Source: a virus. Taken from it: a DNA stretch of 64,000 nucleotides. The stretch is taken from the IMG/VR virus record IMGVR_UViG_3300045988_096839; one strand, given 5' to 3'. The first letter of the stretch is position 1. Each line of letters starts with the position of its first letter. Below the pieces are notes generated by a model. That model saw nothing but the letters and a program-made list of their open reading frames with translations, had not been told where the DNA came from and made no database searches. A program made the translations under genes and the position numbers. Shown here in pieces: positions 63,268-63,342 of this stretch.

Positions 63268-63342
63268 TGGTCCCCCCGCCACCGAATCGAACCCGGACTT
63301 AGAAGGTTAGAGCTTCTCGTGCTACCACTACACCACAGGGGA
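63268..63342 (-). tRNA. suppressor tRNA, anticodon CUA (reads UAG)
   Basis: Minus-strand read: TCCCCTG-TG-GTGT-AGTGGTA-GCAC-G-AGAAG-CTCTAAC-CTTCT-(AAGTC CGGGTTCGATTCGGTGG)-CGGGGGG-A-CCA. It has a 7-bp acceptor stem with two G:U pairs, U8, G10, A14, G18G19 and A21. The 5-bp anticodon stem AGAAG/CTTCT carries a 7-nt loop C-U-CUA-A-C with U33 and A37. The T region contains GGTTCGATTC, but I can only pair 3-4 bp, so the T arm is atypical. Confidence 0.75.

What the first reader, a model, noticed from the sequence alone, without database searches (positions are those of the whole stretch)
63268..63342. Phage-encoded CUA-anticodon suppressor tRNA at the head of the recoded operon, with an atypical T arm
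The anticodon stem-loop (AGAAG / CUCUAAC / CUUCU) is textbook and places CUA at positions 34-36, the exact decoder the about 184 sense TAGs need. The acceptor stem, the D arm, U8, A14 and G18G19 are all in place. The T arm is different: it keeps the GGTTCGATTC box but I can pair only 3-4 bp by hand. So either this is an unusual but functional tRNA or my fold is incomplete. A 7-bp hairpin (TTCGGAG/CTCCGAA, 63345-63372) abuts its 5' end and could be a processing or termination element. The amino-acid identity cannot be read from the sequence alone.
Basis: seen in the sequence. Interest (0 to 1): 0.8.

Follow-up and report, generated by a model that had tools for sequence, protein, structure and literature searches.

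The report
Amber suppressor tRNA with bulged T-stem
This is a real tRNA gene of a crAss-like gut phage that reads the stop codon TAG as glutamine for the phage's late genes; such tRNAs are known, but this one belongs to a conserved sub-family with an extra bulged base in the T stem, and that bulge pushes it close to the detection limit of standard tRNA finders.

Summary
A 75-nt tRNA with anticodon CUA and an encoded CCA lies on the minus strand at 63342-63268. ARAGORN gives these exact coordinates, and Rfam tRNA scores 32.8 bits against a threshold of 29. The window is a crAss-like (Crassvirales) phage. About 193 in-frame TAGs lie in 32 of 40 minus-strand ORFs, all downstream of the tRNA, and the first large gene after it is the terminase TerL. 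In TerL alignments TAG columns match Gln, so TAG = Gln (code 15), as published.

The odd T arm is not a folding failure. About 70 IMG/VR contigs carry 18 distinct tRNAs with the same design. Pairs 49:65, 50:64, 51:63 and 53:61 are kept. Position 52:62 is G.G in the window, and A-U or G-C in five relatives. One extra purine always sits between 62 and 63. Compensatory changes occur in the acceptor stem, the anticodon stem and four of five T-stem pairs.

This sub-family scores 29-40 bits, against 51-57 for canonical crAss CUA tRNAs, so common cut-offs would miss much of it. The 5' hairpin is also conserved in structure. Some relatives carry the same tRNA split by a 1-kb HNH-encoding insertion. 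Verdict: a known kind of element with a new structural variant. Function is inferred, not tested.

The parts
63268..63342 (-). Suppressor tRNA gene, 75 nt: 72-nt body through discriminator A (63271) plus encoded CCA (63270-63268)
   Evidence: ARAGORN. Rfam RF00005 at 32.8 bits. 18-sequence alignment with 95% of cells paired and 14 of 21 pairs showing changes on both sides.
63336..63342 (-). Acceptor stem, 5' strand UCCCCUG. It pairs with 63272-63278 (CGGGGGG); U1.G72 is a weak first pair.
   Evidence: 98-100% paired in relatives, with 5 of 7 pairs compensatory. The Rfam register, shifted by 3 nt, is rejected: pair 4:65 never forms.
63319..63333 (-). D arm GUGU-AGUGGUA-GCAC with A14 and G18G19
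   Evidence: Read from the sequence. Invariant in all 18 relatives.
63301..63317 (-). Anticodon arm AGAAG-CUCUAAC-CUUCU; anticodon CUA at 63308-63310
   Evidence: ARAGORN. All 5 stem pairs show compensatory changes among relatives.
63279..63296 (-). Atypical T arm CCGGG-UUCGAUU-CG[G]UGG. Pairs are C49-G65, C50-G64, G51.U63 and G53-C61. G52 (63293) faces G62 (63283). The extra G at 63282 lies between 62 and 63.
   Evidence: The bulge register is 84-86% paired, and 4 of 5 pairs change on both sides. The canonical register is 41-46% paired.
63344..63373 (-). Leader hairpin UUUCGGAGU-AGACUUUAAAGA-ACUCCGAAA, ending 1 nt before the tRNA 5' end
   Evidence: Fold and shuffles. A hairpin at the same place has different stems in 11 lineages, and several share a similar A/U-rich loop.
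60895..62958 (-). TerL (large terminase), first gene of the TAG-containing late block, with 14 in-frame TAGs

Best explanation
The locus is a functional phage amber-suppressor tRNA. It is transcribed from the intergenic region ahead of the late block, matured at its 5' end just after a conserved leader hairpin, and most probably charged with glutamine by the host glutaminyl-tRNA synthetase. It is then delivered by EF-Tu to in-frame UAG codons, so the roughly 193 TAG-containing positions of the structural and packaging genes are read as Gln. Its T arm is a conserved variant. The T loop (UUCGAUU closed by G53-C61) and the three outer T-stem pairs that contact EF-Tu (49:65, 50:64, 51:63) are intact. 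Position 52:62 is a G.G mismatch, and one extra purine is bulged between 62 and 63. Shown here: the gene, its fold class, its conservation with covariation, the recoding of the downstream genes, and the correspondence of TAG to Gln. Inferred: expression, processing, charging by GlnRS, and any specific role of the bulge.
For: Two independent tRNA finders call the gene.

The late block is recoded. Treating TAG as sense raises the longest ORF from 657 to 5052 aa. There are 193 in-frame TAGs, no ORF ends in TAG, and the upstream small ORFs have none.

At the 14 TerL TAG columns, Gln is 307 of 693 aligned residues, against a background of about 2.4%. In the five most conserved of these columns the relatives carry almost only Gln or TAG. 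Published metaproteomics shows TAG = Gln in crAss-like phages (PMC9523058, abstract).

Synteny: annotated CUA 'tRNA-Gln' genes lie upstream of TerL in cr6_1, cr60_1 and cr56_1. TerL or a recoded block follows the tRNA in most family members.

Conservation: 18 distinct sequences on about 70 contigs share the design. The acceptor stem has 5 of 7 pairs compensatory, the anticodon stem 5 of 5, and the T stem 4 of 5 in the bulge register. The extra base is always a purine. L151 and L154 have a fully Watson-Crick T stem of different sequence (GUUGG/CC[G]AAC) and still keep the bulged G.

Canonical cousins with the same D arm have the same outer pairs, including G51.U63. They differ only by C62 in place of G/U plus a purine; for example CUGGG/CCUAG against CUGGG/CGAUAG.

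The EF-Tu role of pairs 49:65, 50:64 and 51:63 is established knowledge (review PMC11231383).
Against: There is no direct evidence of transcription, processing, aminoacylation or suppression.

The covariance score is only 3.8 bits above the Rfam threshold.

The thermodynamic fold is no better than shuffles (z = +0.9). The minimum-free-energy structure prefers a different T hairpin plus an 8-bp acceptor stem. The cloverleaf with the bulge evaluates at -13 to -15 kcal/mol, against -21.9 for the minimum-free-energy structure.

Several E. coli GlnRS identity elements are absent: the tRNA has C2-G71, C3-G70, A73 and C38.

Only 64 kb of a genome of roughly 97-100 kb is visible, so another suppressor could exist elsewhere.

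The covariation in the T stem rests on about three independent lineages.
Confidence: 0.82

Rival explanations
1. It is the same functional suppressor, but folded as an 8/4-type tRNA. The acceptor stem has 8 bp (U8 pairs with the G that I assign to position 65), the T stem is shortened and irregular, and a single nucleotide separates the acceptor and D stems. ARAGORN and RNAfold both draw it this way.
For: ARAGORN's drawing and the minimum-free-energy fold both use the U8.G pair. That pair is possible in 16 of 18 family members. Natural 8/4 tRNAs, some with a T-stem bulge at 51a and some phage-encoded, are documented (PMC5389517).
Against: U8 and this G never vary within the 16 sequences, so the pair is untested there. 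In L151 and L154 the G is replaced by C, which pairs with G49 and not with U8. ARAGORN's T stem is only 41-46% paired. U8, A14 and G18G19 are invariant, as in ordinary 7/5 tRNAs. The long D stem, D tetraloop and long variable arm of known 8/4 tRNAs are absent.
Confidence: 0.1
2. It is a decaying or non-functional tRNA gene whose T arm was damaged by an indel. Suppression of TAG is done by another tRNA outside the window or by the host.
For: The covariance score is low and the thermodynamic signal is poor. A clearly degenerate tRNA-like remnant lies 110 nt downstream. About a third of the genome is not in the window. Published surveys often find no suppressor in recoded phages.
Against: The same irregular T arm is kept in 18 distinct sequences, while every stem around it changes by compensatory substitutions. 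A one-base deletion would restore a perfect stem in L151 and L154, yet the base is retained. It is the only tRNA ARAGORN finds in the window, and it sits where relatives carry their single suppressor.
Confidence: 0.04
3. It is a functional suppressor that inserts an amino acid other than glutamine, for example Trp. ARAGORN's label would suggest pyrrolysine.
For: ARAGORN labels it tRNA-Pyl. The nearest non-crAss BLAST hits include actinophage tRNA-Trp as well as tRNA-Gln genes. Most E. coli tRNA-Gln acceptor identity elements are missing.
Against: TAG columns align overwhelmingly with Gln and never notably with Trp, Tyr, Leu or Ser. The Pyl label follows only from the anticodon: the D loop with GG, the TPsiC loop and the 5-bp anticodon stem are unlike tRNA-Pyl. 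The short variable region excludes bacterial Ser, Leu and Tyr types. CUA suppressors are known to be glutaminylated through U35 (statement and citation).
Confidence: 0.04

Closest known systems
CUA suppressor tRNAs ('tRNA-Gln'/Sup) of TAG-recoded crAss-like phages, genetic code 15 (Yutin et al. 2021, PMC7886860; Borges et al. 2021 preprint; Peters et al. 2022, PMC9523058)
   Same: The phage order is the same, as are the anticodon and the position just upstream of TerL at the head of the recoded late genes. TAG corresponds to Gln in both. Both have U1 with a weak 1:72 pair, discriminator A73 and often an encoded CCA.
   Different: The annotated examples (cr6_1, cr60_1, cr56_1, cr53_1, cr7_1, cr124_1) have regular 5-bp T stems and score 51-57 bits. 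This sub-family has G.G at 52:62 plus an extra purine after 62, and scores 29-40 bits. In the GenBank phage collection searched, the bulged type occurs in only one unannotated 13.7-kb fragment, MT836538.1.
8/4 and 9/3 'allo-tRNAs' and minor tRNA-Sec / SelC* tRNA-Cys with a bulged nucleotide at 51a (Mukai et al., PMC5389517)
   Same: These are natural tRNAs, some phage-encoded and some stop-codon suppressors. They have an irregular acceptor/T branch of 12 bp and a single bulged base in the T stem.
   Different: In those tRNAs the bulge is on the 5' strand (51a) and comes with an 8-bp acceptor stem, a long D stem with a tetraloop and usually a long variable arm. Here the bulge is on the 3' strand (after 62), the branch is 7/5, and the D arm and variable region are ordinary.
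Classical amber suppressors such as E. coli supE (tRNA-Gln CUA)
   Same: Both have a CUA anticodon reading UAG as Gln and depend on a host synthetase that tolerates A36 (general knowledge; citation).
   Different: supE is a point mutant of a host tRNA with a canonical cloverleaf and partial suppression. This is a dedicated phage gene that serves systematic recoding of about 21% of the Gln positions in the late genes (193 TAG against 724 CAA+CAG).

Membership tests
Elongator tRNA (Rfam RF00005 cloverleaf) | Covariance-model score at or above the gathering threshold | tested here: met
   32.8 bits against 29. However, the model's own alignment mis-registers the T loop and the 3' acceptor strand.
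Elongator tRNA (Rfam RF00005 cloverleaf) | 7-bp acceptor stem, 4-bp D stem with A14 and G18G19, 5-bp anticodon stem, 7-nt loop with U33 and a purine at 37 | tested here: met
   Read from the sequence. Covariation in the acceptor stem (5 of 7 pairs) and the anticodon stem (5 of 5) is.
Elongator tRNA (Rfam RF00005 cloverleaf) | Regular 5-bp T stem closing a 7-nt T loop | tested here: not met
   The T loop UUCGAUU and G53-C61 are present, but the stem has a G.G at 52:62 and one extra purine between 62 and 63. The canonical register is only 41-46% paired.
Phage amber-suppressor tRNA of code-15 crAss-like phages | CUA anticodon in a phage whose genes carry many in-frame TAGs | tested here: met
Phage amber-suppressor tRNA of code-15 crAss-like phages | TAG positions correspond to Gln in homologous proteins | tested here: met
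   Gln is 307 of 693 aligned residues at the window's TerL TAG columns, against a 2.4% background.
Phage amber-suppressor tRNA of code-15 crAss-like phages | Same genomic position as the annotated suppressors of relatives (upstream of TerL) | tested here: met
Phage amber-suppressor tRNA of code-15 crAss-like phages | Expressed, charged with Gln, and active in UAG read-through | not testable with these tools
   Needs tRNA-seq, an aminoacylation assay or a reporter assay.
tRNA-Gln by E. coli GlnRS identity rules (general knowledge) | Weak 1:72 pair, G2-C71, G3-C70, G10, U35, G36, A37, U38, G73 | tested here: inconclusive
   Present: U1.G72, G10, U35, A37. Absent: the tRNA has C2-G71, C3-G70, A36 (unavoidable in a CUA anticodon), C38 and A73. 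The rules for Bacteroidales GlnRS are not known to me and could not be tested.
tRNA-Pyl (ARAGORN's label) | Small D loop without G18G19, 6-bp anticodon stem, 3-nt variable loop, no TPsiC motif | tested here: not met
   The D loop AGUGGUA contains GG, the T loop is UUCGAUU, the anticodon stem has 5 bp and the variable region has 4 nt.
8/4 allo-tRNA / tRNA-Sec-like | 8-bp acceptor stem with a 4-bp T stem, long D stem with tetraloop, long variable arm | tested here: not met
   The U8.G pair is possible but invariant in 16 sequences and broken in L151 and L154. The D stem has 4 bp with a 7-nt loop, and the variable region has 4 nt.

The most novel reading that the evidence does not exclude
The bulged purine after position 62, together with the weakened 52:62 pair, is a selected functional determinant and not a tolerated defect. 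It lies directly beside the three T-stem pairs that set EF-Tu affinity. It could tune how efficiently the suppressor competes with release factor 1, so that late genes are read through without wrecking earlier translation. Alternatively, it could make the tRNA invisible to a host tRNA-targeting defence or modification enzyme, or mark it for a phage factor. Bulge-aware and intron-aware searches would then recover a sizeable share of the 'missing' suppressors of TAG-recoded phages.
Probability: 0.2. Interest if true: 0.65.

Novelty: new variant of a known kind. Interest (0 to 1): 0.45.

Why it matters
Stop-codon recoding in gut phages is well documented, but surveys detect a matching suppressor tRNA in only about 40% of TAG-recoded genomes. 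Authors have guessed that non-canonical tRNAs escape the finders. This locus is a concrete, conserved example. An irregular T stem lowers the general tRNA model score by about 20 bits, to 29-40, which straddles the 35-bit cut-off used in the main crAss-like survey. Relatives of the same tRNA are also split by a 1-kb insertion, and neither finder sees those copies. A model built on this family could be used to re-scan recoded phages.

For tRNA biology, this is a natural suppressor with a bulged 3' T-stem strand that has been kept through long divergence. It could serve as a test case for how much irregularity EF-Tu, the ribosome and processing enzymes tolerate. It may also be of use as a scaffold for engineered suppressors.

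Tried and rejected
1. Rfam's own alignment (T loop shortened to 5 nt, acceptor 3' strand shifted by 3 nt, 3' end at 63274). Rejected: pair 4:65 never forms and 2:67 fails in 10 of 16 sequences.
2. ARAGORN's register (8-bp acceptor stem, T stem with 2 real pairs). Its T helix is 41-46% paired.
3. Thermodynamic folding alone. It is uninformative: z = +0.9, and the minimum-free-energy T hairpin is not supported by covariation. RNAalifold also proposed a non-cloverleaf fold, which I did not adopt.
4. MAFFT alignment of bulged and canonical cousins. It put the gap in the acceptor stem, so I compared the T arms by script instead.
5. A bacterial source for the T arm. In a scan of 185,579 species genomes the pattern lies in a tRNA in only two low-GC gut MAG contigs that carry the phage-type tRNA. 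The other 47 hits are coding-sequence matches in high-GC genomes.
6. The hairpin loop motif as a repeated promoter. TAGACTTTAAAGAA has no other close copy in an intergenic position in the window.
7. The sigma-70 promoter and terminator scan gave nothing above chance. I saw no Bacteroides-type TAnnTTTG motif by eye in the 150 nt upstream.
8. Rfam group I intron models on the split tRNA genes of relatives gave no hit. ARAGORN in intron mode gave no hit either.
9. PHROG search of the two upstream small ORFs gave no family.

Full report
**1. What is at the coordinates**

ARAGORN finds a single tRNA in the 64-kb window. It lies at 63268-63342 on the minus strand with anticodon CTA. The Rfam tRNA model also reaches its gathering score there: 32.8 bits against 29, at 63274-63342.

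The minus-strand sequence is UCCCCUG-UG-GUGU-AGUGGUA-GCAC-G-AGAAG-CUCUAAC-CUUCU-AAGU-CCGGG-UUCGAUU-CGGUGG-CGGGGGG-A-CCA. The discriminator is A, and CCA is encoded. The gene is 58.7% G+C in a window of 30.7%.

**2. Context**

Megablast of 58000-64000 hits crAss-like phages of the family Suoliviridae (cr6_1, cr60_1, cr56_1 and others) at 73-77% identity over the portal and terminase genes. The first large ORF after the tRNA is TerL, at 62958-60895 (PHROG 6681, E=4e-155).

Treating TAG as a sense codon raises the longest ORF from 657 to 5052 aa and merges the minus-strand ORFs into a continuous block from 63018 down to 2818. I count 193 in-frame TAGs in 32 of 40 minus-strand ORFs. All 40 end in TAA or TGA. 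TAG supplies about 21% of the presumed Gln codons. The two small ORFs just upstream of the tRNA (63475-63889) and two of the three plus-strand ORFs at the other end of the window (the third has one) carry no in-frame TAG. So the tRNA sits at the boundary between standard-code genes and the recoded late block.

The relatives cr6_1, cr60_1 and cr56_1 have an annotated 'tRNA-Gln' at the same place, and ARAGORN shows each to have a CUA anticodon.

**3. Which amino acid**

I aligned TerL from the window with 66 distinct TerL sequences from IMG/VR loci and the three GenBank relatives, with TAG masked. At the window's 14 TAG columns the other sequences have Gln in 307 of 693 non-TAG cells, against a background Gln frequency of about 2.4%. 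In the five most conserved of these columns the relatives carry almost only Gln or TAG. This agrees with the published prediction and with metaproteomic evidence for TAG = Gln in crAss-like phages.

The short variable region excludes the bacterial Ser, Leu and Tyr types. ARAGORN's 'Pyl' label follows only from the anticodon.

**4. The T arm**

In the canonical register only G53-C61 and C49-G65 pair. Rfam forces a 5-nt T loop and shifts the 3' acceptor strand. ARAGORN draws an 8-bp acceptor stem. To decide between these, I collected relatives in three ways:
- 80 loci around TerL homologues;
- pattern scans of IMG/VR anchored on the D arm plus anticodon loop;
- pattern scans of IMG/VR anchored on the T arm.

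About 70 contigs carry 18 distinct tRNAs of exactly the same length and design.

On the 18-sequence gap-free alignment (A4), I tested a cloverleaf with one unpaired base between 62 and 63:
- It is 95% paired overall, and 14 of 21 pairs change on both sides.
- The acceptor stem is 98% paired (5 of 7 pairs compensatory).
- The anticodon stem is 97% paired (5 of 5 pairs compensatory).
- The T stem is 86% paired (4 of 5 pairs compensatory).

The same alignment in the canonical T register gives 46% for the T stem. On the 16-sequence alignment A2, ARAGORN's register gives 41% for the T stem, and in the Rfam register acceptor pair 4:65 never forms.

The only non-pair in the bulge model is 52:62. It is G.G in 13 sequences including the window, A-U in three and G-C in two. 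The extra base is always G or A.

Canonical cousins with the same D arm have the same outer pairs, including the G51.U63 wobble. They differ only in having C62 where the bulged type has G or U plus a purine; for example CUGGG/CCUAG against CUGGG/CGAUAG. L151 and L154 have a different, fully Watson-Crick T stem (GUUGG/CC[G]AAC) and still keep the extra G. They also break ARAGORN's U8.G pair.

My conclusion is a 7/5 tRNA with a conserved single-purine bulge on the 3' strand of the T stem. In the window this amounts to a 1x2 internal loop: G52 (63293) faces G62 and the extra G (63283, 63282). The T-stem covariation comes from roughly three independent lineages, so it is good evidence but not overwhelming.

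**5. Consequences for detection**

With the Rfam tRNA model the bulged family scores 29.1-40.1 bits. Canonical crAss CUA tRNAs in the same search score 50.7-56.7 bits. The main survey of crAss-like phages used tRNAscan-SE with a 35-bit cut-off and noted recoded genomes without a detectable suppressor. [quoted passage not shown] A 2026 preprint makes the same point.

In the GenBank phage collection the bulged type appears only in one unannotated fragment, MT836538.1. All annotated crAss 'tRNA-Gln' hits are the canonical type.

In 185,579 bacterial and archaeal species genomes, the T-arm pattern lies in a tRNA only on two low-GC gut MAG contigs that carry the phage-type tRNA. These are probably mis-binned phage contigs. 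In IMG/VR the pattern is always attached to a CUA tRNA.

I found no paper in the library that describes this T-stem variant. The nearest published case is the 51a bulge of some 8/4 tRNA-Sec and tRNA-Cys species.

**6. The leader hairpin**

It ends 1 nt before the tRNA, folds at -10.7 kcal/mol, and has z = -2.4.

A hairpin at the same place, ending 0-6 nt before the tRNA, is present in all 11 lineages I examined, including cousins with canonical T arms. The stem sequences differ (CGGAG/CUCCG, ACGUGG/CCACGU, CAGGGA/UCCCUG, CGGGGA/UCCCCG, CGGCU/AGCCG and others). The loops are A/U-rich, and several resemble AGAC(A/U)UUAAA. The loop motif does not recur elsewhere in the window.

The structure is therefore conserved and tied to the tRNA gene. 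Whether it acts in 5' processing, blocks read-through from the upstream genes or carries a promoter element remains open. It has no U-tract like a classical terminator.

**7. How it most likely works**

Shown here:
- a conserved tRNA gene with a CUA anticodon;
- its position ahead of a TAG-rich late block;
- the correspondence of TAG to Gln.

Inferred:
- The tRNA is made before or with the late transcripts.
- It is charged with Gln by the host GlnRS. U35 is the dominant element, and CUA suppressors are known to be glutaminylated.
- It is carried by EF-Tu, whose three T-stem contact pairs (49:65, 50:64, 51:63) are intact.
- It competes with release factor 1 at UAG.

The role of the bulge is unknown. 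It may be neutral but fixed, or it may tune EF-Tu or ribosome interaction or recognition by host enzymes.

**8. Verdict**

The kind of element is already known. The T-stem variant, its conservation and its effect on detectability appear to be new. Interest is moderate.

Noticed in passing
window 63091-63159 (minus strand): A second, degenerate tRNA-like element lies between the suppressor and TerL. It has a perfect 7-bp acceptor stem (UCCACAG/CUGUGGA), discriminator A, and a perfect T arm identical to that of the tRNA-Met of cr60_1, which lies at the same position. Its D loop has 5 nt and no GG, and its anticodon stem is broken. ARAGORN finds it only at lowered threshold, and Rfam does not find it at E<10. 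It is present in L004 and absent in L005. It is probably a decaying tRNA-Met.
   Followed up: partly
L214, L215, L216, L217 (and partial L213); not in the window: In these relatives the same bulged CUA tRNA gene is split between U35 and A36 of the anticodon by a 984-1001-nt insertion. The insertion encodes a protein of about 300 aa with an HNH endonuclease domain (Pfam PF01844). The two tRNA halves still co-vary between loci, so the gene is probably spliced, perhaps as a group-I-like intron. Rfam finds neither an intron nor a tRNA there, and ARAGORN in intron mode finds nothing. No matching paper was found.
   Followed up: partly
window 62975-63008 (minus strand), 17 nt before the TerL start codon: A terminator-like hairpin, AAAAACUCCCUUCCUUUAUUGGUUGGGAGUUUUUU, is almost identical in L005 although the flanking intergenic sequence has diverged. 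It would separate the tRNA unit from TerL, which hints at read-through or antitermination control of the late block. The simple terminator scan missed it because of its long loop.
   Followed up: partly
L086 (174-kb IMG/VR contig), about 7260-7410 and 13016-14158: Two CUA tRNAs lie in tandem, one bulged (32.8 bits) and one canonical (56.7 bits). A Hatchet ribozyme hit (81.8 bits) and a tmRNA hit (47.8 bits) lie nearby.
   Followed up: no
L002 (cr60_1) 8701-8803: An unannotated 103-nt Rfam tRNA match (35.2 bits) lies directly upstream of the annotated tRNA-Gln. It may be a tRNA with an insertion.
   Followed up: no
L047, L062, L064, L065, L067: ARAGORN finds another crAss CUA tRNA type (UGCCCUG...GUUUCCGUUCGAGUCGGAAC...), but in the one locus of this type that was scanned (L047) it does not reach the Rfam gathering score. 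This is a further example of a suppressor near the detection limit.
   Followed up: no
L164 and L171 (gut MAG contigs labelled Clostridium / Clostridiales): These contigs of 31-32% G+C carry the exact phage-type bulged suppressor tRNA. They are probably crAss-like phage contigs binned into bacterial MAGs.
   Followed up: no
window 8199-23357 (minus strand): With TAG read as sense, a single ORF of 5052 aa with 32 in-frame TAGs appears. It is the largest gene of the late block. I did not examine it.
   Followed up: no
L100, L129, L131, L134: In these phages the bulged suppressor directly follows another tRNA and is followed by a dUTPase-like ORF of about 180 aa, not by TerL. The tRNA has therefore moved between different genome contexts.
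   Followed up: no
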